NCBI GenBank assembly: GCA_964359075.1
Contig: CAYHRX010000001.1
Span: 1-27,467, forward strand
Source: an uncultured Chitinophagales bacterium
GTDB taxonomy: Bacteria > Bacteroidota > Ignavibacteria > UBA10030 > UBA6906
DNA: 27,467 nt
Reading direction: 5' to 3'
Both the position numbers and the translations under genes were made by a program. Numbering within the stretch: the stretch's first letter is position 1; each line of letters starts with the position of its first letter. The notes beneath the pieces are model-generated. The model worked only from the letters and a program-made list of their open reading frames with translations, was not told the origin of the DNA and searched no databases. Shown piece by piece: positions 11,800 to 24,047 of this stretch.

Positions 11800-11815
11800 T
11801 TGAGAACATGTGCCA
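11800..11815 (-). promoter_or_regulatory. Possible sigma54-type promoter for the giant gene (good -24 box, poor -12 box)
   Basis: Minus strand TGGCAC-ATGTT-CTCAA, with the same CTGGCACA -24 block as the two major pilin promoters. A palindromic site lies about 65 nt upstream, as at those promoters. Confidence 0.35.
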
Positions 11816-11890: not shown

Positions 11891-12295
11891 TCACGCGACT
11901 CGAACTCCAGCCGCCACGTGCTCCCGTCCAGAAAATTCGTCATACAGGAACGCAAGGAGTTCGTGCTTCAACGAGTACTTGTCAATAAAACCATCGGCCG
12001 AGTGTTGCCAGGCCATGCTGCGATAGAGGCTGCTTCCGTTCATCGAGAGAATGACCACCTTCGTGCCCGGCAAACGAAGCTTGATCTCCCGTGTCGCACT
12101 GAAGCCGTCTCGCCCTGGCATATCCAGATCCATCAGCACAAGATCCGGATGAAGCTTTTCTGCCTGGTCGATCGCTTCGACACCGTCAGCAGCTTCACCG
12201 ACGATTTCAACGCCCGGCTGGGCCCGGAGAAACGAAAGAAGTGAGCGCCGAAAACTCTCGTGATCGTCAGCGACCAGAACTCTGATTGATTTCAT
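11891..12295 (-). CDS. Stand-alone response regulator receiver protein (NarL-type REC, no output domain)
   Basis: VLVADDH acidic pocket, PDLVLMDLDMPGRDG with phosphoacceptor Asp, GFIDK with conserved Lys; 134 aa; SD GGAGAG upstream. Confidence 0.92.
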   Translation of the reverse strand: MKSIRVLVADDHESFRRSLLSFLRAQPGVEIVGEAADGVEAIDQAEKLHPDLVLMDLDMPGRDGFSATREIKLRLPGTKVVILSMNGSSLYRSMAWQHSADGFIDKYSLKHELLAFLYDEFSGREHVAAGVRVA

Positions 12296-12339
12296 GATGT
12301 AACTCTCCTTAAGTGTTGAGGTAAGTGAATTGTCAAATC

Positions 12340-12759
12340 TCAGGAATTCCCAGACCGCGCTACACCGTTGGACGCGTACACGGCGGCCAGGAGAAGGGAT
12401 CCTTCACCGAACGTCGCTTCAAGACCCGGTTTCAAATCGGATTTCGCGATAAATCCATCCGCGCGTACCTCCTGAGCCCGCAAGCGGTAGGCTGCGTCGT
12501 CATTCATCGTCGCGATGACGACGACTTTGGAGGGCCAGCGTTGCTTGATGATGCGCGTCGCCTCCAACCCATTTCGATGGGGCATCGCGATGTCCATCAA
12601 CACAATATCGGGATTGAGCTGCTCCATCTTCTCGATGACATCAACCCCATCGATCGCTTCGCCCACCACGGAGACGTTGGGCATTCTGCTCAGGAATTCG
12701 CGAACGATTCTCCGGAAGTCGTTGTGATCATCCGCGATAAGGATCTTGACAGGCTCCAT
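12340..12759 (-). CDS. Stand-alone response regulator receiver protein (NarL-type REC, no output domain)
   Basis: ILIADDH, PDIVLMDIAMPHRNG, GFIAK; 139 aa; SD GAGGAG upstream; paralogue of the adjacent receiver. Confidence 0.92.
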   Translation of the reverse strand: MEPVKILIADDHNDFRRIVREFLSRMPNVSVVGEAIDGVDVIEKMEQLNPDIVLMDIAMPHRNGLEATRIIKQRWPSKVVVIATMNDDAAYRLRAQEVRADGFIAKSDLKPGLEATFGEGSLLLAAVYASNGVARSGNS

Positions 12760-13124: not shown

Positions 13125-13502
13125 TTAGTCCGAGACTGTCACGACAACTGCGCTCGAGACATGCTGTCGTTCAGCGTAACGTTTGCCAGTGTCTGCGCCG
13201 GCGGCGGAAGTTGAAGCGTCAAGTTCGAAGCTGAGATTCCGTTGGCGAGGTAAGTCTGCTGCGAGGGTAAGCTTTGGTTGCGATCGATACGCGCGGGTTT
13301 GTGCTGTGGACGCCGATCGTTCGCTCATCTGATCCACATTCTGTGATGCAGACGATTGGGAAGCCAGAGAGATCGGTCCATTCGTTCTGTGGACACTGAA
13401 CGTGACTGTCTGAGCTGCAGAACTTGATCGTTGCGCAAACGCCTGGCCTGCACACATCCCACACACAGCAACGAGAGCTACGATATGTCCGAGTGGTTTC
13501 AC
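13125..13502 (-). CDS. Small secreted protein, degenerate relative of the pilin-like family
   Basis: Signal peptide ending GQAFA/Q; N-terminal AAQTVTFSV like ANQTVTLAV of the major subunit; C-terminal VVVTVSD like TVTLTLTN; Ser/Ala/Gln-rich middle. GTG start without a clear SD. Confidence 0.6.
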   Translation of the reverse strand: MKPLGHIVALVAVCGMCAGQAFAQRSSSAAQTVTFSVHRTNGPISLASQSSASQNVDQMSERSASTAQTRAYRSQPKLTLAADLPRQRNLSFELDASTSAAGADTGKRYAERQHVSSAVVVTVSD

Positions 13503-13517
13503 AGGAGATGTCTACTT

Positions 13518-14009
13518 TTATTCCGTTAGCGTCAGCGTAATCACCCGAGACTGTGCATCAATCTCATTGACACTCTCGTTTGCCGCGAAGGTGTAGGTGA
13601 TGCTCTGATTCAAGACGCTCCCGCGGTTAATCCCTGTCACGACATTGATCGGTGTGCGAGCGCGCGAGATATCAACAGGACCGTTGCTGACACCTTGCGA
13701 ACTCTCGAGCTTGATCACAAGCTGGGTCCCTTCGGGCATCACATCGCTGATCGAAGCAACGATCTTCATGTTGTCGAGATTCGTGAGCATGCTGTAGCGC
13801 GTGTTATTGTCACTCACGGACAAGACGTTCGGGTCACCCAATAGACCGTTGATGGTCAGTTCGCCAGGATTACCGTTGACTGCAATTTTCGTGATCGGTT
13901 TGACTTCAACAGTCACGATCTGAACGACACTGGCGCCGCTCTGTGCCACCAGTTGAAGGGGAACGAGTAGGAGTAAAAGAAGGATGAGTTTGTGAACTGC
14001 CTTAGCCAT
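13518..14009 (-). CDS. Secreted pilin-like subunit, clear paralogue of the duplicated major subunit (ORF can extend to 14051)
   Basis: Signal peptide MAKAVHKLILLLLLLVPLQLVA/Q; shares AV.GNPG.LT, SVSDN.T.YS, G.VDIS, VVTG.NRG, ITYTF.AN.S and TLTLT motifs with 20035..20535. Confidence 0.85.
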   Translation of the reverse strand: MAKAVHKLILLLLLLVPLQLVAQSGASVVQIVTVEVKPITKIAVNGNPGELTINGLLGDPNVLSVSDNNTRYSMLTNLDNMKIVASISDVMPEGTQLVIKLESSQGVSNGPVDISRARTPINVVTGINRGSVLNQSITYTFAANESVNEIDAQSRVITLTLTE

Positions 14010-14095
14010 TGTCTTGAAGAAGTAAGCAAAACAAACGATGAATGTCAACATGTTTCACGATTTTCGACGCAGAATGTTCGACCTCCAGACATAGC

Positions 14096-14111
14096 ATCAA
14101 GAGGAATGCCA
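14096..14111 (-). promoter_or_regulatory. Putative sigma54-type promoter (-24/-12)
   Basis: Minus strand TGGCAT-TCCTC-TTGAT; GG and -12 box at sigma54 spacing; intergenic and upstream of the 13518..14009 gene. Confidence 0.6.
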
Positions 14112-14139
14112 AAACGCTGACGTTTTCAATTTTGTGTGT

Positions 14140-14152
14140 TCTCGTTTTGAGT
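14140..14152. promoter_or_regulatory. Putative enhancer palindrome (single site)
   Basis: TCTCG-TTT-TGAGT, about 36 nt upstream of the -24 box, closer than at the other promoters. Confidence 0.35.
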
Positions 14153-14391
14153 CAGCGCATGCAAGGCTGTTGAGGTCAACGCTTTCACTGTCCATTTCGG
14201 ATGACATCAGATCGATTTGAAATTTCTACAAGGAGTGGGCTTAGCTCGAGTCCATGAGTTGACATCCGAGAAGGATAAATCTCGTAAAGCGCGTGAAGCA
14301 CCGACAGATTCTTCACGAGCAGAGTAAGGAAGGATTCCAATGAGATCTCAGGGAGGCGGGAGGCAGAGATCTACACGAGAGCTCCTTGAGA

Positions 14392-17300
14392 TTACCGTTT
14401 CTTCCGGATCTCTTGAGCCGCGATTTCGGCGAGCTTTTTTGATGAGAAGTTACCAACGTAGACGCTGTACCGAGTTCCAAGTTGCCGCAACACCGTCTTT
14501 CTAACAAATGCGTGATATCCAAATGCTCGCTGCAGATTGGCGGCTTCACGGACTGCTTTTTCTTCCGTGACCCAGGAGGACACCAGGATTGAGAATCCAG
14601 TCTCCTTCGGTAGACGCACCACAATATGCGTCGTATCAAGAGTCTTTATCGGAGCCAGCTTAGTCGTCGGCCGTGGAGGCTTTGCCACCACTGGCGGCTG
14701 GGCCGGCTTCTTTCGCTCGACCGGCTTCGTTTCCTCGAGCAACTTGCCTTCCTGCAGTATCTGAATCCGTCGTCTTCGTGGAAGTATCTTCAGCTCAATG
14801 TGCTGTGTCCCGCCGGGAGCGACTTCAAGTTCGACTCCCTCCTTCTCAAAATAATGATTGGCAGGCAAGTTACCTTCGACCACTTGGAGGGACCACCGAC
14901 CCGGCCGCATTCCAGTAAAACTGAAACGGCCTCGATTGTCAGAAATACGACGGTGGGATTCAAGGGAATTCGCCAGCTCCAATATCACATTGGAATGACC
15001 TCCGAGTTCGGCATACGCTATGCGGGTAGTGTCTATCTGTACGGAGTCTATCAGACCGTAGAGCAAGACCGTCCCGGAGATCGTCGCACCGCGAATCACC
15101 CCAAGATCGACCCGAGCCTCTTCACCCCCTTTGATCGTTATCTCCCGCGGCATCGGCTGCGACGGGACACGATTGAGACCGATGCTCCCCATATCGATCT
15201 GGATATAGTACTTGTCAGGCTTCAAGGACGGGAAAAAGAATTCTCCGTTGCGATCCGTCACTGCCGTAGCGCCACTGGCATAAATCAGAACATTGGGCAA
15301 ACCCTTTCCAGCTTCAGCATCGACAACGCTGCCGCGAAGTCGTCCGGTCGTGGTGATGCGAGAGAGGGAAACGCCAATGGGAATACTATACTCGAGGAGG
15401 TACGCGACATCCTTCGAGCCGAACGAGGGAGTGAACTCGCTTTGCCGGCCCCTCAACGCGAGCCGGTGGCCGAAGGGGAATGTGTGTTCGAGCGCAACAT
15501 CAATCAAATAGTAGGTCTGCTTGATCGAGTCAGGCGTACGACTGCCATACGCGCTCAACGTGAACTGAGTTCGGGCACCGAGCATGAGCCAAGCGCTCAA
15601 GCTTCCAGAGAGGCGCTTCTGTATCTCATCGGTGAAAATATTTTGGTCTTTCGAGTATTCGACGGATAGACCAATGCTCGAGAAAGATGTGGGTCTGAAG
15701 TTTGTGAAGAGCGTGTACCGTTGAAAGGGATACTTCTTCCCAACGACCGTATCTTGAGTCCTGCCGAAATCGGCGTTGGCAATGAACCCGAGAGATGAGA
15801 AGTTGTGCCCCATACGAACCTGCACCAGCTCCTCGTCCCGTCTGTACTTCGGAATCGGCAAGAGATCATCTTGATGGTTCAGTCGATAGTAAATCGCCAG
15901 GAGATCGGAATATCCCGCTCCGAACTGAAAGTAGCGCTCGCGAGGGGCAAAAAAGAGAGTCGTATCTCGCTCAAGATTGCGCTCCTCATCGCGGAAGTAC
16001 GCCTCCAGCCTGATATTGCTCCACGGCATCACGCTAAGATTGAGCGTCTTGAATTCTAGGTCCTTGTAGTAGCCGGCGTACTTTGGCCCCGCCCAAACAT
16101 ACCGTGCCTCATAGGCAATCCATTGCTCGCGTCCGGTAACGCGCGCCGAGTATGCTTTGTCAGCCAGACCCCCTCTGTACCCCCGACCGTACTCAAGGTC
16201 GACTTCTGAGTTCTTGAGAGGCCGGAGGAGACTTCGGACCGTAACGATATCACTCTTTGTCTGATCGATCTTTCGCAGGTAGTTGAGACCAAGCTCGGAG
16301 CTCTGCCCCAACCGGTAGCTGAGAAACCCAGCCGCCTCCTTCTGCAGCGGCACGAGAAATCGGGTTTCGTTGTAGAAGCCTCCAATCGTCACGAGACCAA
16401 GCGCCGCCTTGCCTCCTGCCCCGAACGCGTATCGGTTGAATTCTGTCAATGGCGAGAGGTTGTAGTTCTTGTCACCTGCGTAGACTTCATACCCTTCGGT
16501 TTGGTAACTGATAAGGTATTCGTCACGCTGCCCCAGAATCGATCGCTGTTGAATGTCAGGAGTTCGAAGTAGAACGTCCAGCCGATCGCGTCGCCCTTCG
16601 CCAAGAGCACCGGATCCCATGATCTCGACCTGAGCACCTTTCGCCGTCCGCCCTCCCGCGGCACGCAAGCGAACCTGCAATGGAAATTCAAAGAACTGAT
16701 CTTCCACGCCGGTAACCTTCGGCACAACCTCGACTGAGCCTGAGGCTCGACCGGCGAAGAGGGAATCTTGGTCGCGCATCGCAAGGATCTCGAATACGTC
16801 CTGAACCTTCTGCAACAGCCGAGGTTCTGTCTGGACAACCGCCTTCAGCTGACGCGTTTCGTTGGGCCTCAGTTGGACTCTACTTGAATCCAACTGGACA
16901 GAAAAGTTGTTGCTGCTTCGCGGTGTGAGGCGAATCCTTCCTACTGCATTCCCCTTATTTGTGATGAGGAAGAGAGCAGTGTACGGGTCCCCTGCCAGAA
17001 CATATCTGGGCAGTTCCAGCAGCCTCAACTCAAGTTGTTGGACGGAGGTTACAACCACTGTGACGGAGGCTTGTGCTGTGGTCGTTGGAGCAGCCGCATC
17101 CTTGACGCTGTAGTGAATCTCGTAGCGAGCGGCAGGAGTTTCGGCAGGAATCGAAAAGCTGATGAGACGGATGTCGCTTGCTCCGGCGGAGAGCTCATAC
17201 GCAGTCTCTTTCTTGAACGCCCTCCAACCGGTCGGAAGAACAACGCTCGGCTCAAGCCGCACCGACGCCATCGAGTTGTTGGAGACCCTCATACTGACTG

Positions 17301-17484
17301 TCACAATCTTGCCAGGCGGCGTCTCGACACGCGGTTCGCTTGCCGGACGCACCTCGATGTTCTGTGCCTGAACACCATGAACAGCCACCGGCGCCAGCAC
17401 GGCAAGCATCAGAATAAAAAAAAATATCCGGTTGTGATGGACCGGATGTATCATCGCACGCAAATTCACTGTCGTCGAGGTCAA
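14392..17484 (-). CDS. Usher-like outer-membrane assembly protein: two N-terminal Ig/NEW3-like domains, central beta-barrel-like region, two carboxypeptidase-regulatory-like domains, Pro/Lys linker, C-terminal SPOR-like domain
   Basis: Signal peptide ending HGVQA/Q. PGKIVTVSMRVSN...LPTGW and AGDPYTALFLITNKGN are Ig-like segments, followed by a long run of amphipathic beta-strands. GRLRGSVVD...TDRNGEFFFPSLKPDKY and ATISGTV...SDNRGRFSFTGMRPGRW are CarboxypepD_reg-like repeats. The tail GFSILVSSW...RYSVYVGNFSSKKLAEIAAQEI is SPOR-like. TTG start overlaps the chaperone TGA stop (TTGA); alternative ATG starts at 17454 and 17409. Confidence 0.75.
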   Translation of the reverse strand: MTSTTVNLRAMIHPVHHNRIFFFILMLAVLAPVAVHGVQAQNIEVRPASEPRVETPPGKIVTVSMRVSNNSMASVRLEPSVVLPTGWRAFKKETAYELSAGASDIRLISFSIPAETPAARYEIHYSVKDAAAPTTTAQASVTVVVTSVQQLELRLLELPRYVLAGDPYTALFLITNKGNAVGRIRLTPRSSNNFSVQLDSSRVQLRPNETRQLKAVVQTEPRLLQKVQDVFEILAMRDQDSLFAGRASGSVEVVPKVTGVEDQFFEFPLQVRLRAAGGRTAKGAQVEIMGSGALGEGRRDRLDVLLRTPDIQQRSILGQRDEYLISYQTEGYEVYAGDKNYNLSPLTEFNRYAFGAGGKAALGLVTIGGFYNETRFLVPLQKEAAGFLSYRLGQSSELGLNYLRKIDQTKSDIVTVRSLLRPLKNSEVDLEYGRGYRGGLADKAYSARVTGREQWIAYEARYVWAGPKYAGYYKDLEFKTLNLSVMPWSNIRLEAYFRDEERNLERDTTLFFAPRERYFQFGAGYSDLLAIYYRLNHQDDLLPIPKYRRDEELVQVRMGHNFSSLGFIANADFGRTQDTVVGKKYPFQRYTLFTNFRPTSFSSIGLSVEYSKDQNIFTDEIQKRLSGSLSAWLMLGARTQFTLSAYGSRTPDSIKQTYYLIDVALEHTFPFGHRLALRGRQSEFTPSFGSKDVAYLLEYSIPIGVSLSRITTTGRLRGSVVDAEAGKGLPNVLIYASGATAVTDRNGEFFFPSLKPDKYYIQIDMGSIGLNRVPSQPMPREITIKGGEEARVDLGVIRGATISGTVLLYGLIDSVQIDTTRIAYAELGGHSNVILELANSLESHRRISDNRGRFSFTGMRPGRWSLQVVEGNLPANHYFEKEGVELEVAPGGTQHIELKILPRRRRIQILQEGKLLEETKPVERKKPAQPPVVAKPPRPTTKLAPIKTLDTTHIVVRLPKETGFSILVSSWVTEEKAVREAANLQRAFGYHAFVRKTVLRQLGTRYSVYVGNFSSKKLAEIAAQEIRKKR
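17416..17424 (-). repeat. T9 homopolymer in the 5' end of the usher-like gene
   Basis: Plus strand A9 (agaat-aaaaaaaaa-tatcc); coding strand ATA TTT TTT TTT ATT (IFFFI). Confidence 0.8.
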
Positions 17485-18299
17485 AACTTCAATGTGTACT
17501 CTGCTCCATAGACATCATCACCGCCAGCATCGACAACAACCAATGCTTTGTATGTGCCAGTTGAGACCTTGCTGAGGTCTATCATTTGTCGCACAGATGT
17601 GCCGGGATACATCCGATACCGGATCCCCGCGTACTTGCCTTGCGACACGCCTTTCTCATCAAACAACTCGACATAGACTTCCGGACGCATGCCAAGCTCG
17701 CCGCTGTTGCCAAGGTCGACCTGTAAGATCCTCTTTCCGTTTTCCTTCGTCACGAGCTTCGCGTCAAGAAACTCGACCTTCTTCGTACCCGTTTGCGCAA
17801 TATGCGTGGCGATCTGGATCCCATAGCGAATCGTCTGCCGAATCCCCATTTGCGTCTTCTTGGGGTCCCGCGGCTGTGTTGACTCTGCTGAACCCTTGGG
17901 AATGCCCTCAACCATCAACATGCTCCAGTACGAACCCACCAACGTATTCTCCTGCGTGGTTTCCGGCACAGCAACTGCATAATTGATGGTCACAGTTCCC
18001 TGCGGAGGGACCGTAAGATAGGACGGACTGAACGTCACCCATTTCGCGTTGGAGCGCACCAAGGTTCCGGGATCAGCATAGTTGTTTGTTCCATCGCGGT
18101 AAAACATATAGTCGGTTTGATATACCTTCGCTTCTTGCGGCTCATTGGTGTCGTTCCGAATAACGATGACGCCTTCATACCGTTCTCCGGGCCGAGTCTC
18201 TCGGTCATGGCTGAGCTCGCCAATAACGGACACTTGCGCGTACAGGGACAACGCTGCGAAAGAAATCATCGCGAAGGGGAGGAAGAATCGCGTGTGCAT
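17481..18299 (-). CDS. Periplasmic two-domain Ig-like (PapD/DUF916-like) pilus chaperone candidate
   Basis: Probable start MHTRFF at 18299 with signal peptide ending SLYA/Q. PGERYEGVIVIRN...WVTFSPSYLTVPPQGTVTINYAV...GSYWSMLMVE first domain and LQVDLGNSG...YPGTSVRQ...GTYKALVVVD second domain are typical of chaperone-like proteins beside usher genes. Confidence 0.75.
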   Translation of the reverse strand: MHTRFFLPFAMISFAALSLYAQVSVIGELSHDRETRPGERYEGVIVIRNDTNEPQEAKVYQTDYMFYRDGTNNYADPGTLVRSNAKWVTFSPSYLTVPPQGTVTINYAVAVPETTQENTLVGSYWSMLMVEGIPKGSAESTQPRDPKKTQMGIRQTIRYGIQIATHIAQTGTKKVEFLDAKLVTKENGKRILQVDLGNSGELGMRPEVYVELFDEKGVSQGKYAGIRYRMYPGTSVRQMIDLSKVSTGTYKALVVVDAGGDDVYGAEYTLKF

Positions 18300-18306
18300 G
18301 GGGAGC

Positions 18307-18807
18307 CTATAGTACAAGTAGGGTGTAGGTAACCGTATGAACGTCGTTCCCTTGCTCTGCGCTGTTGCCTTGAGCAAAAGTCGCCGACGCCGTGTATCGA
18401 AGTGTGATCGTCGTAACAGTGAATCCTGCGTTTGGAATGTTCGTGACGAAATCCGTGTCCAGCATCCCGTTCACGAGTGTGACCTCCGGGGCAGCGACCC
18501 CTCGCGTCACGCCGGTCCCCAATACTTTCAAGGTAAAGCTTTGACTAGGACAGGTCGTCCGTACGGTTATCTTGCTGATCGCTGCTTGCCTTCGGTATCG
18601 AAGCGTTGAAGCAGTATTGACTACCGGCAGCGGTTCTGAGCCTGGCGAACCAGTGGTGATATTCAGAGTCTGATTGCCGCCGCGGACATCAATCGGCTGC
18701 GCTTTCATCTCTGCTGCAGAACAAACGATCGCAAGCAGCAAGACACCGAGCGAGATTGCCATCCGTTCTGCTCGAGGACTTCCAGGATGTTTTGCCTTCT
18801 CAGCCAT
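18307..18807 (-). CDS. Secreted minor pilin-like subunit lacking the family's first N-terminal strand
   Basis: Probable start MAEKAKH (18807) or MAISLGV (18762); signal peptide ending EMKA/Q; KITV, PEVTL, LRYTASA and HTVTYTL motifs are shared with neighbours. Confidence 0.8.
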   Translation of the reverse strand: MAEKAKHPGSPRAERMAISLGVLLLAIVCSAAEMKAQPIDVRGGNQTLNITTGSPGSEPLPVVNTASTLRYRRQAAISKITVRTTCPSQSFTLKVLGTGVTRGVAAPEVTLVNGMLDTDFVTNIPNAGFTVTTITLRYTASATFAQGNSAEQGNDVHTVTYTLLVL

Positions 18808-18826
18808 GGCGGATTTCGGACCGCTA

Positions 18827-19336
18827 CTAATTTGTGACAGTGAATGTGATCGTATGGGAATCTGTTCCGGTGCCCTGGGATGCGAGCGCAGCACCTGTGT
18901 ACCGCAAGGTGCAACTCCCAGTTGATCGCCCAATGTTCAGCAAGAAATCGCTTGCCGTTGTGCTCAGCGTGACTTCAGGCATCGCCGTGCCCACCGTTGG
19001 ACTCAACGCCACGACCTTTAGAGTAAACTGCGGTGCAGCAAGATTGCTATTGACGGTAATCTTTCTGTTCGCACTGTTGACGCCCCACAAAAGGTTTGAT
19101 GTCTGGTCAACGACTGTCCCTAGTGCGTCCTGTCCAGCAACTGCGCCAGCACCGGTGATCGTAAGGCTAACACTTGGCGAACTTACTTGGACTGCCGTAA
19201 TCGTCGCCACAGTGACAGTCACGGTATGAAAATCCGAGCCATAGACCTGCGCCGTTGCTCTTCCAATGAAGCAGAAATGACAGAGAATCAGCGCAATCAA
19301 TGCGAACGGCTTTTTCAGTGAGCGTCCCGATTTCAC
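18827..19336 (-). CDS. Secreted minor pilin-like subunit
   Basis: Probable GTG start at 19336 (VKSGRSLKKPFALIALILCHFCFIGRATA/Q). HTVTVTV N-terminal strand, RKITV, PEVTLS, CTLRYTG, SHTITFTVTN. The ORF-track extension to 19534 overlaps the upstream gene. Confidence 0.8.
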   Translation of the reverse strand: MKSGRSLKKPFALIALILCHFCFIGRATAQVYGSDFHTVTVTVATITAVQVSSPSVSLTITGAGAVAGQDALGTVVDQTSNLLWGVNSANRKITVNSNLAAPQFTLKVVALSPTVGTAMPEVTLSTTASDFLLNIGRSTGSCTLRYTGAALASQGTGTDSHTITFTVTN

Positions 19337-19443
19337 AGTGCGCGTTTTTGGCAAAAGAACCCCGGTGGAGGCAACGGACAGGTGGAATATAGGTTCAATC
19401 GAATTGAGATTCAAGATGCACAACCGTATTGGTAACAGCGGCT

Positions 19444-19953
19444 CTAACTGCCTGTAATCGTATAGGTAATAATATACGTTTCGCTGCCGACGCCATCGCC
19501 GATCTTCGCCGATGCCGTAAACTTGACCTTGCATCTCCCTATGGTCTTCGAAACGCCGATTACCATGTCTTTGGTGGTATTATCGCTGAGAACAACCTCC
19601 GGACCAGCGACCCCGGCCGAGTTGGGGACATCGAGGGCAACGAGCTTTATGAGGAAACGGGGGGAAGGGTTGTTGCTTGCAACGGTAATTTTCTTATTCT
19701 CACCATTGGTTATCCACATCAACACTCCCTCTTCATTCACCGCCGGAATCGCCTTTCCATCTTCGAGCGATGCTTGGTCAATGATGAGCGTGACTGCGGT
19801 GTTGTTGATACCGATCTTGTTGATCTCGAGAACCTGGAGGGTGAGAACCTGATCCGTGCTGGCCTGTTGACCGATGAGCCGGGCTGAGAACAGGAAGCTC
19901 AGGAGCGTTGCCTTCCACCATCTTGCAGCCATATTTTTGATTCCAGCTTTCAT
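19444..19953 (-). CDS. Secreted minor pilin-like subunit
   Basis: Signal peptide; QVLTLQV N-terminal strand, KKITV, PEVVLS, CKVKFTASA, YIITYTITGS; aligns by eye with 18827..19336. Confidence 0.85.
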   Translation of the reverse strand: MKAGIKNMAARWWKATLLSFLFSARLIGQQASTDQVLTLQVLEINKIGINNTAVTLIIDQASLEDGKAIPAVNEEGVLMWITNGENKKITVASNNPSPRFLIKLVALDVPNSAGVAGPEVVLSDNTTKDMVIGVSKTIGRCKVKFTASAKIGDGVGSETYIITYTITGS

Positions 19954-19981
19954 TGGTCGTCGATCCTTCTGATGATCCAGG

Positions 19982-20017
19982 ATCCGCGGCCGGTCACTCC
20001 CGGAACCAGCCGCGGAT
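19982..20017 (-). other. Strong GC-rich stem-loop between the major subunit gene and the minor genes, with no U-tract
   Basis: Minus strand ATCCGCGGCTGGT-tccgggagtg-ACCGGCCGCGGAT: 13-bp stem including one G-U pair, 17 nt after the stop codon. Confidence 0.65.
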
Positions 20018-20034
20018 ACTTCCTCGCTTGGAAA

Positions 20035-20535
20035 CTAGTTTGTCAAGGTCAGGGTGACGGTCTTGCTTGTGGAACTGAGCGTGCCAGCCGACGCATTCGC
20101 TGAGAAGGTGTAAGTAATCGCCTGTCCCGCATCTGCTCCTCTGTTCATCCCCGTGACCACATCCACTGCACTGCCTGAAGTCGCATTCGAAATGTCAACG
20201 TTGCCTGCACTCGTACCCTTCGTGCTCGCAAGATTCAATAACAGCGTGTAGCCCGCTGACAACGCTGCATCCATATAGGCAGTGACCTTCACCGTGCTGG
20301 CAACATTCTGCGTGATGCTGTAGTTCGTTGAGTTATCACTGACCGATGACAGAGCATCCACTCCTGCCGTACCGGTCGTGACTGTCAACGCACCAGGGTT
20401 GCCAGATACCGCAAGCCTATAGACCGCATTCACAGCCAGTGTGACGGTCTGGTTTGCAGTTGCCTGAGCCATTGCGCTTTGCACAAGAACCATACTCAGA
20501 ACTGCAGCGACGAGTGTTACGACGATCTTTTTCAT
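20035..20535 (-). CDS. Major pilin-like subunit, copy A (166 aa)
   Basis: SD GGAG-tttaca-ATG; signal peptide MKKIVVTLVAAVLSMVLVQSAMA/Q; no Cys; Ala/Ser/Thr-rich beta-strand protein with N-terminal ANQTVTLAV and C-terminal KTVTLTLTN; has its own promoter. Confidence 0.88.
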   Translation of the reverse strand: MKKIVVTLVAAVLSMVLVQSAMAQATANQTVTLAVNAVYRLAVSGNPGALTVTTGTAGVDALSSVSDNSTNYSITQNVASTVKVTAYMDAALSAGYTLLLNLASTKGTSAGNVDISNATSGSAVDVVTGMNRGADAGQAITYTFSANASAGTLSSTSKTVTLTLTN

Positions 20536-20602
20536 TGTAAACTCCTTGTGTGTATTAAGTTCTTTGGGCATCCCATTCGGTCTCTTATCTGTTCCATAAT
20601 AG

Positions 20603-20618
20603 CTCAAACGCTGTGCCA
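20603..20618 (-). promoter_or_regulatory. Putative sigma54-type promoter for copy A and the downstream operon
   Basis: Minus strand TGGCAC-AGCGT-TTGAG. Confidence 0.7.
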
Positions 20619-20671
20619 GCGCCTCTGCTCGACTTTTCCTTTATTTTCCAACCCCGCGGCTCGGGTGCCTG

Positions 20672-20703
20672 TACCAAAATGATTACGCTGATTCAGAATG
20701 AGA
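20672..20703. promoter_or_regulatory. Putative paired enhancer sites
   Basis: TACCA-AAA-TGATT, 6-nt spacer, ATTCA-GAA-TGAGA. Further single matches at 20779-20791 (TCTCA-ATC-TGAAA) and 20818-20830. Confidence 0.45.
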
Positions 20704-20887
20704 AGGGGAACGCTAGTCTCTTTTTTGCAACAAGCTCGCAATCCCGTCTTGAATCCTGATGCATCAGCACGGCTTCCGTCTCAATCTGAAAGCGAGATCC
20801 ATCCTTGAACGCCAGTACCACAAAATGAGATTTCAGAAGGTAAGCAGCTTGGCTGGACGAAGGTATCTGATTGAACGCTTGGAGGGT

Positions 20888-20936
20888 AAAAAAAACACAA
20901 AGAGGGTCTCAACTTGCGTTGAGAACCCCCTCTGTG
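20888..20936 (-). terminator. Rho-independent terminator after copy B
   Basis: Minus strand cacagagggggttctcaac-GCAA-gttgagaccctctttgtg-tttttttt: bulged stem, GNRA tetraloop, T8 tail. Confidence 0.75.
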
Positions 20937-20970
20937 CTTATCGGAGGCGACGGGATGCTCCGCGATAAGA

Positions 20971-21471
20971 CTAGTTTGTCAAGGTCAGGGTGACGGTTTT
21001 GCTTGTGGAACTGAGCGTGCCAGCCGACGCATTCGCTGAGAAGGTGTAGCTAATCGCCTGTCCCGCATCTGCTCCTCTGTTCATCCCCGTGACCACATCC
21101 ACTGCACTGCCTGAAGTCGCATTCGAAATGTCAACGTTGCCTGCACTCGTACCCTTCGTGCTCGCAAGATTCAATAACAGCGTGTAGCCCGCTGACAACG
21201 CTGCATCCATATAGGCAGTGACCTTCACCGTGCTGGCAACATTCTGCGTGATGCTGTAGTTCGTTGAGTTATCACTGACCGATGACAGAGCATCCACTCC
21301 TGCCGTACCGGTCGTGACTGTCAACGCACCAGGGTTGCCAGATACCGCAAGCCTATAGACCGCATTCACAGCCAGTGTGACGGTCTGGTTTGCAGTTGCC
21401 TGAGCCATTGCGCTTTGCACAAGAACCATACTCAGAACTGCAGCGACGAGTGTTACGACGATCTTTTTCAT
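20971..21471 (-). CDS. Major pilin-like subunit, copy B (166 aa)
   Basis: SD GGAGG-ctaca-ATG; identical to copy A except ITYTF -> ISYTF. Confidence 0.88.
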   Translation of the reverse strand: MKKIVVTLVAAVLSMVLVQSAMAQATANQTVTLAVNAVYRLAVSGNPGALTVTTGTAGVDALSSVSDNSTNYSITQNVASTVKVTAYMDAALSAGYTLLLNLASTKGTSAGNVDISNATSGSAVDVVTGMNRGADAGQAISYTFSANASAGTLSSTSKTVTLTLTN

Positions 21472-21524
21472 TGTAGCCTCCGACGAGTATTTTGTTTGCT
21501 GTTTCATTGTTCTGGTGTAGCTAC

Positions 21525-21540
21525 CTCAATAGCTGTGCCA
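21525..21540 (-). promoter_or_regulatory. Putative sigma54-type promoter for copy B
   Basis: Minus strand TGGCAC-AGCTA-TTGAG. Confidence 0.7.
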
Positions 21541-21793: not shown

Positions 21794-21809
21794 TGGCATA
21801 CCTCTTGAG
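21794..21809 (+). promoter_or_regulatory. Putative sigma54-type promoter for the kinase-activator operon
   Basis: Plus strand TGGCAT-ACCTC-TTGAG, matching the 14096-14111 site at 14 of 16 positions. Confidence 0.65.
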
Positions 21810-21919
21810 TTAGATCTATTAGTCAAAGCCTTGCGCGCGAAGTGTCCAGATCTGATGTCGGGGCGCGCGAGACGTGTTGTGCTTCAACATCTTCAGTTCA
21901 TAGACAATCGGTGACGAGC

Positions 21920-22645
21920 ATGGAACATCTTGTACATACGAGAACGGACGAGAGCGAAGTGCTCTCAAGGATTTCCCACGAACTTCGAACGCCGCTGACG
22001 TCCATCATCGGCTACGCCGAAGTTATGTTAAGCGACCCGAGGTTGTCTCCCGATCTCAAGCGCGAGTACGTGGAGATCATCAGGGACGCAGGGAAACGAT
22101 TGTCGAATTTTCTTGACAACTACTTTGACAGTACGTTCGCGGAACGCGAGAAACAACCTCGAGGTCGATCGGACGAGGACTTGTCAGTGATCGTGAAGTG
22201 GTCGGTGGACCTCGTCTCCGCCGATGCGGAGGTAAAATCCGTGTCATTCAGCTCGGCGTGCGACCAGTCTGTCATCCTCGCGAATGTCAATACTACTCAC
22301 CTTGTGCATATCCTGCAAAACATTTTGACGAACGCCATACAGCTCGCCCCAAGGGGCGGTCATGTGGAGATTCAGGTCGTGGCGGATTCCTCCTCCATCG
22401 AAATCCTCATAATCAATCGGGATTTGGGCATTCTGAGCACATCGGTGACGAGCGTTTGCCAGAACTTTAGGTGGATTCAATCCCCCGGCGTTGAGATACG
22501 CGAAAACGGGCTGGGTCTTGCATTTGCCAAACATGTTGTCGAACTTGAGGGGGGGGAACTGACCGTTCAGACAGACCATGAAGAGGGTCTGACGTTCAAA
22601 CTCGAATTTCCGAATCGGTCCACGGCCACAACCGCACACTCTTGA
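21920..22645 (+). CDS. Sensorless histidine kinase-like protein (HisKA plus degenerate HATPase_c)
   Basis: H-box SHELRTPLTSIIGYAE within ~20 aa of the probable ATG (21920); N-box LQNILTNAI; G1 region reads IINRDLGI, F-box VCQNF, G2 ENGLGL. The ORF track extends to a GTG at 21842. Confidence 0.85.
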   Translation: MEHLVHTRTDESEVLSRISHELRTPLTSIIGYAEVMLSDPRLSPDLKREYVEIIRDAGKRLSNFLDNYFDSTFAEREKQPRGRSDEDLSVIVKWSVDLVSADAEVKSVSFSSACDQSVILANVNTTHLVHILQNILTNAIQLAPRGGHVEIQVVADSSSIEILIINRDLGILSTSVTSVCQNFRWIQSPGVEIRENGLGLAFAKHVVELEGGELTVQTDHEEGLTFKLEFPNRSTATTAHS

Positions 22646-22661
22646 TTTTAAGAATCTCAGC

Positions 22662-24047
22662 ATGACATCCGAACGACTTATCTACATCGTTGACGACGAG
22701 GACACAATCGCGCGTCTTCTCGAGCATTGGGTCACGAAAAAGTGGGGCTATCAATCGCGATTATTCGTCACAGGCGAAGCGTGCCTGGAAAACCTAACCA
22801 CGGTACCCGACGTCATTCTCCTCGACATCATGCTTCCGGGCATCGGCGGCGTTGATACGCTGAAGGAGATCAAAAATCGTTTTCCTGATCTCCCGGTGAT
22901 AATGCTTTCTGCCCAGGGTAAAATCGATGTTGCGATCGAGACGCTCAAACTTGGCGCAACAGACTACTTTACAAAACCTGTGGATTTTTCCAAGCTGGAA
23001 GTGAGTGTCAAGAATGCCATCCAGACACACGACCTCGCACGCGAAGTCACCCGACTGCGGGAAGCTGTCGAAAAACCGGTCCACTTCGAAAACATCATTA
23101 CCGATAACGGCGCAATGCAGGAGGTCTTCAAGCTCGTGCAGAAGGTGAAAGACAGCGACATCTGCGTGCTTGTGCTGGGAGAGAGCGGAACGGGAAAAGA
23201 ATTGATCGCGCGAGCGATTCACTACAATGGTAATCGGAAGAATCAACCGTTTGTGGTTGTCAACTGCGCATCAATTCCAAGAGATTTGCTGGAGAGCGAG
23301 CTGTTCGGCCACGAAAAAGGTTCGTTTACCGGTGCGTATCAACGGCGCATCGGCAAGTTCGAACAAGCGATCGGGGGCACACTGTTTCTTGACGAAATTG
23401 GCGAGCTCGATCTCAGCCTTCAGGCTAAGCTGCTCCGCGTCATCCAGAGCAAGCAGTTTGAGCGTGTCGGAGGAAACGAGACGTTGACGACGGATGTTCG
23501 GCTTGTCTCGGCAACCAACAGAGATATTGTGAAAGCCGTCGCTCAAAAGCAGTTCCGCGAGGACCTCTATTTCCGGCTGGCCACGTTCCCGATCCTCATT
23601 CCACCGTTGCGCGACCGACGATCCGATATTCTGCTTTTGTCAGAACATTTCCTTAAGCGCTTCTCGCAAGAGCTTTCGAAGCCAAGCATGGGTTTTTCAA
23701 AGAAAGCGCTCAAGCTCATGTACGACTATGCGTGGCCTGGCAACGTTCGTGAACTGGAGAATGCTATCCAGCGTGCCACCCTTATGTCGGACGGCAACAG
23801 CATCACGGAGAAAGACCTTCCCCTGGCTGTGTTGACCTTTGGTTCACAAGACGACGCCGGTTCAGGCTCGCCTCTTACTATCGGCGTAGAAGCCATCAAG
23901 CCACTCGAAAAGATCAAAGAAGAAACGATTCGCGAGGCACTGAAGGTTACAGAAGGAAATATTGTTGAGGCTGCGAGAAGGTTGAAGATCGGGCGTGCGA
24001 CGATGTATCGATCGATGAAGAAGTACAAGATCACCGAGCAGAAGTAG
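22662..24047 (+). CDS. NtrC-family sigma54-dependent response regulator (REC, AAA+, Fis-type HTH)
   Basis: IYIVDDE and LLDIMLPG receiver; Walker A GESGTGKE; ESELFGHEKGSFTGA (GAFTGA-loop variant); Walker B LFLDEIGEL; FREDLYFRL; WPGNVRELEN; GNIVEAARRLKIGRATMYR HTH. Confidence 0.97.
   Translation: MTSERLIYIVDDEDTIARLLEHWVTKKWGYQSRLFVTGEACLENLTTVPDVILLDIMLPGIGGVDTLKEIKNRFPDLPVIMLSAQGKIDVAIETLKLGATDYFTKPVDFSKLEVSVKNAIQTHDLAREVTRLREAVEKPVHFENIITDNGAMQEVFKLVQKVKDSDICVLVLGESGTGKELIARAIHYNGNRKNQPFVVVNCASIPRDLLESELFGHEKGSFTGAYQRRIGKFEQAIGGTLFLDEIGELDLSLQAKLLRVIQSKQFERVGGNETLTTDVRLVSATNRDIVKAVAQKQFREDLYFRLATFPILIPPLRDRRSDILLLSEHFLKRFSQELSKPSMGFSKKALKLMYDYAWPGNVRELENAIQRATLMSDGNSITEKDLPLAVLTFGSQDDAGSGSPLTIGVEAIKPLEKIKEETIREALKVTEGNIVEAARRLKIGRATMYRSMKKYKITEQK

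What the first reader, a model, noticed from the sequence alone, without database searches (positions are those of the whole stretch)
13125..21540. Atypical chaperone-usher-like fimbrial system with seven related subunits
Seven small secreted proteins share an alternating hydrophobic strand after the signal peptide (six of seven), a central K-I/V/L-T strand and a C-terminal T-V/I-T-L/Y/F-T strand. They surround a two-Ig-domain chaperone-like gene that is translationally coupled to a beta-barrel protein (seen). Subunits, chaperone and usher with donor-strand exchange define chaperone-usher pili, which are characterised mainly in Proteobacteria (established). This system has no paired pilin cysteines, has an usher-like protein with NEW3-like and SPOR-like additions, apparently comes from an FCB-type genome, and is linked to a giant adhesin and a dedicated sigma54 relay. 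I know of no characterised equivalent (inference). This is the best candidate for a new system in the window.
Basis: partly seen in the sequence, partly recalled or inferred. Interest (0 to 1): 0.85.

Follow-up and report, generated by a model that had tools for sequence, protein, structure and literature searches.

The report
Usher-like pilus operon, WxL-type chaperone
This groundwater Ignavibacteria-type genome carries an unannotated operon that looks built to assemble a strand-swapped surface fibre through an outer-membrane pore, and its helper protein is related to the chaperone of the recently described Gram-positive WxL pili, so it links two pilus pathways studied separately.

Summary
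The genes are real and the chaperone-usher-like reading mostly holds, with corrections.

- **Subunits:** six of the seven small proteins are true paralogues with a confident pilin-like Ig fold. Their nearest structures are donor-strand fibre subunits and WxL/SCPU proteins.
- **Seventh protein (125 aa):** it keeps only the signal peptide and three strand motifs. It is a conserved mini-protein and a candidate terminator.
- **One subunit (s208):** it lacks the N-terminal strand. Its position just upstream of the chaperone gene is conserved.
- **272-aa periplasmic protein:** it is not PapD-like by sequence. It is a remote homologue of the Gram-positive WxL-pilus chaperone (EfmWxLIP1, E 6e-6) without the membrane anchor.
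- **1020-aa protein:** the model gives two Ig domains, a 26-strand barrel, two transthyretin-like domains and SPOR. Ushers are the top Foldseek hits, but there is no sequence homology and no obvious plug.
- **Conservation:** chaperone and barrel genes are adjacent in 80 of 80 related loci from many diderm phyla.
- **Regulation and neighbours:** sigma54 control is conserved in about half of these loci. The giant adhesin is not conserved with the system.

No pilus has been seen, and donor-strand exchange is inferred. I found no paper on the diderm form. The WxL pilus preprint says that system is confined to Bacillota. This scan has flagged the same class on other DNA at least 25 times.

The parts
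20971..21471 (-). s178, major subunit copy 1 (166 aa with signal peptide)
   Evidence: AF2 pLDDT 94.6. Nearest folds are Caf1, CfaB, FimA and CsuA/B and WxL/SCPU proteins. It is 70-90% identical to homologues in many MAGs.
21526..21540 (-). sigma54-type -24/-12 promoter of s178 (TGGCAC-N5-TTGA)
   Evidence: Exact motif found 4 times in the window against 0.29 expected. The same motif class lies upstream of 55 of 196 subunit genes in related loci and 0 on the control strand.
20907..20924 (-). terminator-like hairpin after s178
20035..20535 (-). s190, major subunit copy 2 (99% identical to s178)
20604..20618 (-). sigma54-type promoter of s190
19444..19932 (-). s169, minor subunit with N-terminal strand
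   Evidence: BLASTP to s235 E 2e-23; alignment
18827..19336 (-). s235, minor subunit with N-terminal strand (GTG start)
18307..18762 (-). s208, subunit lacking the N-terminal strand; candidate tip or first-incorporated subunit
   Evidence: Gap over the N-terminal strand. 23 of 115 family members lack it. Exactly one such gene occurs in 50 loci, usually directly upstream of the chaperone gene.
17481..18299 (-). periplasmic chaperone-like protein (272 aa), WxLIP (DUF916/DUF3324) relative without membrane anchor
   Evidence: Family profile hits EfmWxLIP1 (9i25, 9i1y) at E 6e-6, colinear over 180 residues. WxLIP_PGBD hits in 10 of 74 members, WxLIP_HBD in 2 of 74, PapD_N in 0 of 74. 0 of 74 have a C-terminal TM segment and 71 of 74 have a signal-like N-terminus.
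14392..17454 (-). usher-like outer-membrane protein (1020 aa from the conserved ATG)
16723..17358 (-). two N-terminal Ig-like (NEW3-type) domains of the barrel protein (residues 33-244)
   Evidence: Ig2 resembles chaperone domain 1 by hhalign, probability 89%.
15358..16695 (-). 26-strand beta-barrel (residues 254-699); invariant cluster at residues 297-345
14779..15345 (-). two CarboxypepD_reg (transthyretin-like) domains (residues 704-892)
14398..14625 (-). SPOR domain after a disordered Pro/Lys linker
   Evidence: Pfam E 7e-6; model. Homologues carry LysM or TPR here instead.
14097..14111 (-). sigma54-type promoter of s177
13518..14009 (-). s177, subunit encoded after the barrel gene (41% identical to the major subunit)
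   Evidence: A post-barrel subunit with the N-terminal strand recurs in most close loci.
13125..13502 (-). s125, mini-protein with signal peptide, donor-like N-terminal strand, central K-L-T strand and C-terminal strand; candidate terminator
   Evidence: Counterparts at the same position in at least 10 loci. Resembles ElrB by analogy.
21794..24047 (+). divergent regulatory operon: sigma54-type promoter, 267-aa histidine kinase, 461-aa sigma54 activator
   Evidence: The activator is linked in 35 of 80 loci and the kinase in 27 of 80.
11891..12759 (-). two single-domain response regulators downstream of the operon
   Evidence: Pfam Response_reg; linked in 25 of 80 loci

Best explanation
The locus encodes a surface fibre (pilus) built by donor-strand exchange in a double-membraned bacterium.

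Proposed pathway:
1. Sec exports the subunits. A soluble periplasmic chaperone related to the Gram-positive WxL-pilus chaperone (WxLIP/ElrE) caps each incomplete Ig-like subunit by lending a strand from its conserved hairpin (the G-I-x-Q-T-I-R-Y-G-I-Q-I block).
2. The complexes dock on the periplasmic Ig and transthyretin-like domains of a 26-strand outer-membrane barrel, which a SPOR domain tethers to peptidoglycan.
3. The N-terminal amphipathic strand of the incoming subunit (T-V-T-L-x-V) displaces the chaperone strand in the preceding subunit, and the chain is threaded out through the barrel.

Proposed roles:
- s208, which has no N-terminal strand, would go first at the tip.
- s169, s235 and s177 would be adaptors or minor subunits.
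- The duplicated, separately sigma54-driven s178 and s190 would form the shaft.
- s125, which has a donor strand but no proper body, would terminate the fibre.

Shown here: gene content, paralogy, the folds of one subunit and of the barrel protein, chaperone homology, synteny across phyla and the promoter motifs.
Inferred: strand exchange, order of assembly, passage through the barrel, and all individual roles.
For: - **Subunit fold:** pLDDT is 94.6. The first 16 mature residues lie outside the sandwich by DSSP.
- **Subunit neighbours (AFDB):** the top cluster is a WxL domain protein at E 4.7e-6, and SCPU proteins are also listed.
- **N-terminal strand:** among 115 family members it is 100% hydrophobic at alternate positions. 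23 of 115 lack it, and that form has a conserved operon position.
- **Chaperone:** the family profile matches EfmWxLIP1 at E 6e-6 across the hairpin and second domain. The family is soluble.
- **Barrel protein:** domain layout. Ushers are the top Foldseek hits, and the 26-strand barrel matches MtrB.
- **Synteny:** chaperone and barrel genes are adjacent in 80 of 80 loci. 75 of 80 loci have 1-8 subunit genes. Source MAGs are labelled Ignavibacteriota, Bacteroidota, Rhodothermales, Planctomycetota, Spirochaetota, Thermodesulfobacteriota, Bdellovibrionota, Verrucomicrobiota and Zixibacteria.
- **Mechanistic precedent:** the homologous chaperone type is reported in bioRxiv 10.64898/2026.10.17.759780.
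Against:
- The subunit N-terminal segment has high pLDDT (83-96) although DSSP shows it unpaired, so its conformation in the model is unclear.
- The barrel has no sequence similarity to ushers and no inserted plug domain is evident. By VIA it is only slightly closer to PapC than to TonB-dependent or Occ barrels.
- No subunit hits the WxL, SCPU or Fimbrial Pfam families.
Confidence: 0.68

Rival explanations
1. The same machinery exports and displays the small Ig-like proteins as monomers or short oligomers on the outer membrane, as a surface coat or adhesin complex, rather than as a long polymer. This matches the older 'static platform' model of WxL clusters.
For: - The major subunit is unusually conserved, 70-90% identical across MAGs, which is atypical for exposed pilins.
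- WxL clusters were long read as surface complexes.
- No plug domain is evident in the barrel.
Against: - The N-terminal amphipathic strand is conserved, and one specialised subunit lacks it.
- A donor-strand-only mini-protein is conserved.
- The nearest folds are polymerising subunits.
- The homologous Gram-positive system is now reported to form pili.
Confidence: 0.15
2. It is simply an extremely divergent member of the archaic (sigma/Csu, SCPU-type) chaperone-usher family. Its PapD-like chaperone and usher would have drifted beyond sequence detection.
For: - Ushers are the top Foldseek hits for the barrel protein.
- SCPU proteins are among the subunit's AFDB neighbours.
- Atlas neighbours of the chaperone include clusters in which 27% of members carry PapD_N.
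Against: - No PF00345, PF00577 or PF05229 signal appears in these proteins or in the genome.
- 0 of 74 chaperone relatives hit PapD_N, while 10 of 74 hit WxLIP_PGBD. The only significant PDB profile hit is WxLIP.
- The barrel has 26 strands and no plug insertion, against 24 strands plus a plug in ushers (the usher anatomy is from established knowledge).
- The barrel profile finds no usher in the PDB.
Confidence: 0.1
3. The barrel is a conduit or porin of another kind, for example an MtrB-like sheath for a periplasmic partner or an uptake channel. The small proteins would then be its accessory binding proteins, not fibre subunits.
Against: - There are no cytochrome, TonB-box or plug features.
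- The barrel gene is strictly adjacent to a WxLIP-type chaperone gene and pilin-like genes in 80 of 80 loci.
- Flanking beta-sandwich domains sit on both sides of the barrel, as in ushers.
Confidence: 0.04

Closest known systems
Elr / WxL pilus of Enterococcus faecalis and WxL-WxLIP (Csc) clusters of Bacillota (bioRxiv 10.64898/2026.10.17.759780; PMC10599100; PDB 9i25, 9i1y)
   Same: - The chaperone is a sequence-level relative of WxLIP (DUF916+DUF3324), including the hairpin that donates the strand.
- The subunits are closest to WxL domain proteins in AFDB.
- They carry an N-terminal donor-like strand.
- One subunit type lacks the strand, as the tip protein ElrA does.
- A small donor-strand-only protein parallels ElrB.
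   Different: - The chaperone is soluble with no C-terminal membrane helix (0 of 74).
- There is no LPxTG or sortase anchor.
- No subunit hits the WxL Pfam model and most lack the W-x-L motifs.
- An outer-membrane barrel protein is always present.
- The hosts are diderm phyla, whereas the preprint reports the WxL system as confined to Bacillota.
Classical and archaic chaperone-usher pili (Fim, Pap, Caf1, CFA/I, Csu; PF00345, PF00577, PF00419, PF05229)
   Same: - Three-part logic and operon organisation.
- Pilin-like Ig fold with an N-terminal extension.
- Outer-membrane barrel flanked by periplasmic beta-sandwich domains, with FimD/PapC as top Foldseek hits.
- No periplasmic energy source is needed (established for chaperone-usher systems, inferred here).
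   Different: - No Pfam or profile match for any component.
- 26 strands rather than 24, and no plug insertion evident.
- Two NEW3-type Ig domains stand in place of the usher N-terminal domain, and transthyretin-like domains in place of CTD1/CTD2.
- A peptidoglycan-binding SPOR tail is present.
- Subunits have no disulfide.
TLP-1a/b environmental fibrils (CryoSeek, PMC11494351; PDB 9ikk)
   Different: The TLP-1b chain is larger (237 against about 142 mature residues). Its donor is protomer n+4, and its genes and assembly machinery are unknown. No sequence link was tested.
MtrB of the Shewanella MtrCAB complex (PDB 6r2q)
   Different: It has no Ig, transthyretin-like or SPOR domains and no cytochrome partners here. 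The similarity is probably generic to large barrels.

Membership tests
Classical chaperone-usher pilus | Periplasmic chaperone of the PapD family (PF00345/PF02753) | tested here: not met
   No PapD_N hit in the protein, in 74 diverse relatives or in the genome at E <= 0.01. Atlas neighbours with PapD_N are leads only.
Classical chaperone-usher pilus | Usher of family PF00577: 24-strand barrel with an inserted plug, an N-terminal domain and two C-terminal domains | tested here: not met
   No PF00577 hit and no usher in the PDB profile search. The model has 26 strands and no plug insertion. Only the overall architecture is similar.
Classical chaperone-usher pilus | Subunits with an incomplete Ig fold completed by the N-terminal strand of the next subunit | tested here: inconclusive
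   The fold and its nearest neighbours fit and the N-terminal strand is conserved. No multimer model or groove inspection was possible.
Archaic (Csu/sigma) chaperone-usher pilus | SCPU-domain subunits (PF05229) | tested here: not met
   0 of 115 subunits hit SCPU at E <= 0.05. SCPU proteins appear only as structural neighbours at ranks 16 and 27.
WxL pilus / WxL-WxLIP cluster | DUF916+DUF3324 (WxLIP) chaperone | tested here: met
   Remote but significant: profile against EfmWxLIP1 E 6e-6 over 180 colinear residues. WxLIP_PGBD in 10 of 74 members and WxLIP_HBD in 2 of 74, all below Pfam cut-offs.
WxL pilus / WxL-WxLIP cluster | C-terminal transmembrane helix anchoring the chaperone (96.7% of WxL chaperones per the preprint) | tested here: not met
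   0 of 74 family members have a C-terminal hydrophobic segment.
WxL pilus / WxL-WxLIP cluster | Subunits with the WxL domain (PF13731) | tested here: not met
   No WxL Pfam hit in 115 subunits. The similarity is structural only (AFDB E 4.7e-6; Atlas 0.91).
WxL pilus / WxL-WxLIP cluster | LPxTG terminator and sortase anchoring | tested here: not met
   No LPxTG in any gene product. s125 ends in a beta-strand motif.
Type V (FimA/Mfa) pili of Bacteroidia | Lipoprotein precursors with a lipobox, and protease-triggered strand exchange | tested here: not met
   Subunits have A-x-A|Q signal peptidase I sites and no lipobox Cys. Only one of 115 gave a weak FimA-like_C hit.

The most novel reading that the evidence does not exclude
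This family is a third, very widespread lineage of donor-strand-exchange pili that connects Gram-positive WxL pili with Gram-negative chaperone-usher pili. It would combine a WxLIP-type chaperone that works free in the periplasm with an independently evolved, plug-less 26-strand 'usher' tethered to peptidoglycan. The chaperone-pilin core would then predate the monoderm/diderm split or have crossed it.
Probability: 0.4. Interest if true: 0.85.

Novelty: new variant of a known kind. Interest (0 to 1): 0.7.

Why it matters
If the fibre is real, many environmental diderm phyla have a pilus pathway that no annotation pipeline recognises. The affected groups include Ignavibacteriota, Bacteroidota, Rhodothermota, Planctomycetota, Spirochaetota, Desulfobacterota-type, Bdellovibrionota, Verrucomicrobiota and Zixibacteria. 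The chaperone profile finds 2753 clusters at 50% identity, all without a family name.

[quoted passage not shown] It offers a natural intermediate for asking how chaperone-usher pili arose.

The plug-less 26-strand barrel with a SPOR, LysM or TPR tail would be a new solution for threading folded subunits across the outer membrane.

Tried and rejected
- **Classical and archaic chaperone-usher membership:** Pfam and NCBIfam scans of all nine proteins found nothing relevant. Genome-wide searches for PF00345, PF00577 and PF06030 found nothing.
- **Narrow chaperone profile:** the profile of close homologues (A3) found nothing in the PDB. Only the broader profile A4, built from 50%-identity cluster representatives, reached WxLIP.
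- **Subunit and barrel profiles against PDB sequences:** no relevant hits.
- **Giant adhesin as a tip subunit:** the subunit HMM finds no pilin-like domain in it. Pfam finds only a G8 domain. It is linked in only 3 of 80 loci.
- **The look-up of encoding contigs on three distant chaperones:** the contigs were too short to be useful.
- **The search for related loci with A4:** A3 worked.
- **ESM Atlas:** it holds no structure for the chaperone or for a homologue, so the chaperone fold could not be searched.
- **Type V pili, T9SS cargo and TasA-like fibres:** considered and set aside, because there is no lipobox and no CTD, and TasA/camelysin is only a weak structural neighbour.
- **Metatranscriptome run:** it holds only short low-depth contigs over the operon. 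This does not prove transcription.
Full report
**Anatomy**

All genes of the finding lie on the minus strand. Start codons were chosen by conservation in homologues. In transcription order the operon reads:

| Gene | Coordinates | Note |
|---|---|---|
| s178 | 20971-21471 | major subunit copy 1 |
| s190 | 20035-20535 | major subunit copy 2 |
| s169 | 19444-19932 | minor subunit |
| s235 | 18827-19336 | minor subunit |
| s208 | 18307-18762 | lacks the N-terminal strand |
| chaperone-like | 17481-18299 | 272 aa |
| barrel protein | 14392-17454 | 1020 aa |
| s177 | 13518-14009 | post-barrel subunit |
| s125 | 13125-13502 | mini-protein |

Exact TGGCA[CT]-N5-TTGA motifs precede s178, s190 and s177, and also the divergent kinase/sigma54-activator operon. 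That is 4 matches against 0.29 expected by chance. A hairpin with a T-run follows s178. The genome is a 4.05-Mb, 801-contig MAG that is 94% complete, and the window is a whole contig. The closest relatives are MAGs labelled Ignavibacteriaceae, and the DNA is held by groundwater metagenomes.

**Subunits**

Six proteins are paralogues, with BLASTP E 3e-35 to 4e-5 for all pairs except s177-s169 (0.016) and s177-s208 (0.14). s178 and s190 differ by one residue. I collected 115 family members from the window and 80 related loci (alignment A5).

- After an A-x-A|Q signal-peptidase site, most have a segment Q-x-[ST]-A-x-[QH]-T-V-T-[VL]-x-V-x-x-I. It is 100% hydrophobic at alternate positions.
- All end in H-T-[VI]-T-[YLF]-T-[LIV]-T.
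- 23 of 115 lack the N-terminal segment, as s208 does.
- Mature proteins mostly have 0 or 1 Cys.
- No member hits the WxL, SCPU or Fimbrial Pfam models, and no PDB sequence matches.

The AF2 model of s178 is confident (pLDDT 94.6). The signal peptide forms a helix, residues 23-38 have no DSSP strand, and a beta-sandwich runs from residue 39 to the C-terminus.

- Foldseek against the PDB lists Caf1, CfaB, FimF/G, CS17, CanA, FimA, CsuA/B and the Sulfolobus thread subunit, at marginal E-values of 1.6e-3 to 0.1.
- The core alignments in that search begin at model residue 34-41. This places the conserved N-terminal strand outside the domain, as in pilins.
- In AlphaFold DB clusters the best hit is a WxL domain protein (E 4.7e-6), and SCPU proteins appear further down.

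The fold evidence is therefore consistent but not strong in any single score. I could not inspect the groove or run multimers.

**Two special small proteins**

s208-type subunits, which lack the N-terminal strand, occur exactly once in 50 related loci. In the Ignavibacteria/Bacteroidota-type loci they sit directly upstream of the chaperone gene. In donor-strand pili only the distal subunit needs no donor strand, so this is the expected signature of a first-incorporated subunit (inference).

s125 is not a detectable paralogue by BLASTP. The subunit HMM matches only its signal peptide and N-terminal strand. Proteins with the same layout occur at the same operon position in at least 10 loci. The shared layout is:
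- a signal peptide;
- S-S-S-A-x-Q-x-V-T-F-x-V;
- a low-complexity middle with a K-[VI]-T-V motif;
- a C-terminal [VL]-[VI]-T-[VIL]-[ST]-[DE].

This parallels ElrB of the Elr pilus, a small protein with a donor strand but no acceptor domain that is proposed to terminate assembly. It also parallels PapH and FimI in function (established knowledge). The terminator role here is inference.

**Chaperone-like protein**

Pfam gives only weak fn3_5 and WxLIP_PGBD signals. The family is very large and unnamed: a profile search finds 2753 clusters at 50% identity, 597 of them below 1e-30.

- A profile of 74 diverse members matches EfmWxLIP1 (PDB 9i25, 9i1y) at E 6e-6. Profile positions 88-268 align colinearly with chain residues 83-261.
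- 10 of 74 members hit WxLIP_PGBD, 2 hit WxLIP_HBD and none hits PapD_N.
- The most conserved block, G-I-x-Q-T-I-R-Y-G-I-Q-I-x-T-H-I, aligns with the WxLIP segment at about chain residues 139-153. That corresponds in position to the ElrE donor strand, residues 141-152 in the preprint. This positional equivalence is my inference.
- None of the 74 has a C-terminal hydrophobic helix and 71 have a signal-like N-terminus. The protein is therefore a soluble periplasmic version of a chaperone that is membrane-anchored in Gram-positives.

**Barrel protein**

The AF2 model (pLDDT 84.8) gives this layout:

| Residues | Element |
|---|---|
| 33-135, 141-244 | two Ig-like domains |
| 254-699 | 26 beta-strands |
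| 704-801, 814-892 | two transthyretin-like sandwiches |
| 897-941 | disordered Pro/Lys linker |
| 944-1019 | SPOR domain |

- Foldseek ranks FimD and PapC first (11 hits, E 1e-14 to 9e-12), well ahead of LptD at 1e-7. TM-scores are low, 0.2-0.37.
- There is no PF00577 signal and no usher in a PDB profile search.
- The resemblance to ushers is therefore one of architecture: a wide barrel flanked by periplasmic sandwiches. It is not demonstrated homology.
- I saw no inserted plug domain. The invariant residues cluster at positions 297-345, which could be a gating element (speculation).
- Homologues replace SPOR by LysM or TPR. This fits a periplasmic, wall-binding C-terminus and, with an even strand number, a periplasmic N-terminus.
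- The second Ig domain resembles the first domain of the chaperone by hhalign (probability 89%).
- AlphaFold DB holds same-architecture proteins without functional names (E down to 3e-55). An annotated usher appears only at rank 21.

**Conservation**

A scan of species-representative genomes returned 80 loci. Their source MAGs are labelled Ignavibacteriota, Bacteroidota, Rhodothermales, Pirellulales, Phycisphaerae, Spirochaetales, Thermodesulfobacteriota/Syntrophales, Bacteriovoracaceae, Zixibacteria, Verrucomicrobiota and Candidatus Thiodiazotropha.

- In all 80, a gene covering barrel-profile positions of about 15-915 lies immediately downstream of the chaperone gene.
- 75 of 80 loci have 1-8 subunit genes.
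- Within the window's class, 29 of 151 sampled genomes (19 of 84 genera) have a chaperone match, so the distribution is patchy.
- The sigma54 activator is linked in 35 loci, the short kinase in 27 and the two single-domain response regulators in 25.
- The giant adhesin is linked in only 3 loci.
- A -24/-12 motif lies 50-90 nt upstream of 55 of 196 subunit genes in 35 of 74 loci, with none on the control strand.
- The giant protein has no pilin-like domain and only a G8 domain hit. I treat it as a neighbour, not a component.

**Transcription**

One sediment metatranscriptome holds short contigs, 97-100% identical and at depth 2-4, over s177, the barrel gene, the chaperone gene, s208 and the 5' end of s178. 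This is compatible with expression but does not prove it.

**Comparison with the literature**

A preprint of October 2026 shows that enterococcal WxL clusters build a pilus by donor-strand exchange primed by the DUF916/DUF3324 chaperone ElrE. It states that the system is confined to Bacillota and forms a chaperone family disjoint from PapD. It does not mention diderm relatives. Full-text searches found no description of the diderm form.

The present family shares the chaperone lineage and the subunit logic. It adds an outer-membrane barrel and drops the membrane anchor, the WxL motifs and sortase anchoring.

**Earlier notes of this scan**

Follow-up agents have described the same class on other DNA at least 25 times, including two Ignavibacteria-type genomes. 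I reached the WxLIP link independently before reading those notes. They are not independent evidence.

**Verdict**

The feature is real, conserved and unannotated. The best reading is a donor-strand-exchange fibre system of a new lineage (confidence about 0.68). The alternatives are a non-polymerising surface display system, a hyper-divergent archaic chaperone-usher system, or an unrelated barrel function.

Noticed in passing
window 299-11743 (-): A 3814-aa secreted repeat protein with only a G8 domain hit (residues 3261-3302). It has no T9SS CTD and no pilin-like domain. A partial -24 element (TGGCAC) lies at 11801-11815 upstream. It is linked to the pilus-like operon in only 3 of 80 related loci.
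   Followed up: partly
window 16441-16587 (-), barrel protein residues 297-345: The densest cluster of invariant residues in the 1020-aa protein (R297, P299, D311, E312, Y313, G327, D328, L336, T337, R341, G345) lies in the first barrel strands and their loops. It may be a gating or plug-like element replacing the usher plug.
   Followed up: no
window 16723-17040 (-) and 17481-18299 (-): The second Ig domain of the barrel protein resembles the first domain of the chaperone (hhalign probability 89%, E 2e-6). Both also give weak hits to NCBIfam 'choice-of-anchor T'. This may reflect domain sharing between the pore and the chaperone.
   Followed up: partly
related proteins P0122 and P0157: Homologues of the barrel protein carry TPR repeats or a LysM domain instead of SPOR at the C-terminus, so the wall-binding tail is modular.
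   Followed up: no
control genomes: The Pfam WxLIP_PGBD model also rings in Thermotoga maritima and Methanosarcina acetivorans, not only in Lactococcus lactis. DUF916-like domains therefore occur outside Bacillota more generally.
   Followed up: no
window 21842-22645 (+): The 267-aa histidine kinase has HisKA and HATPase_c domains but no sensor or membrane domain. It is co-conserved with the sigma54 activator in 27 of 80 loci.
   Followed up: partly
L075 (Rhodothermales MAG): This locus holds two complete chaperone-barrel pairs within 20 kb, so the module can be duplicated within a genome.
   Followed up: no
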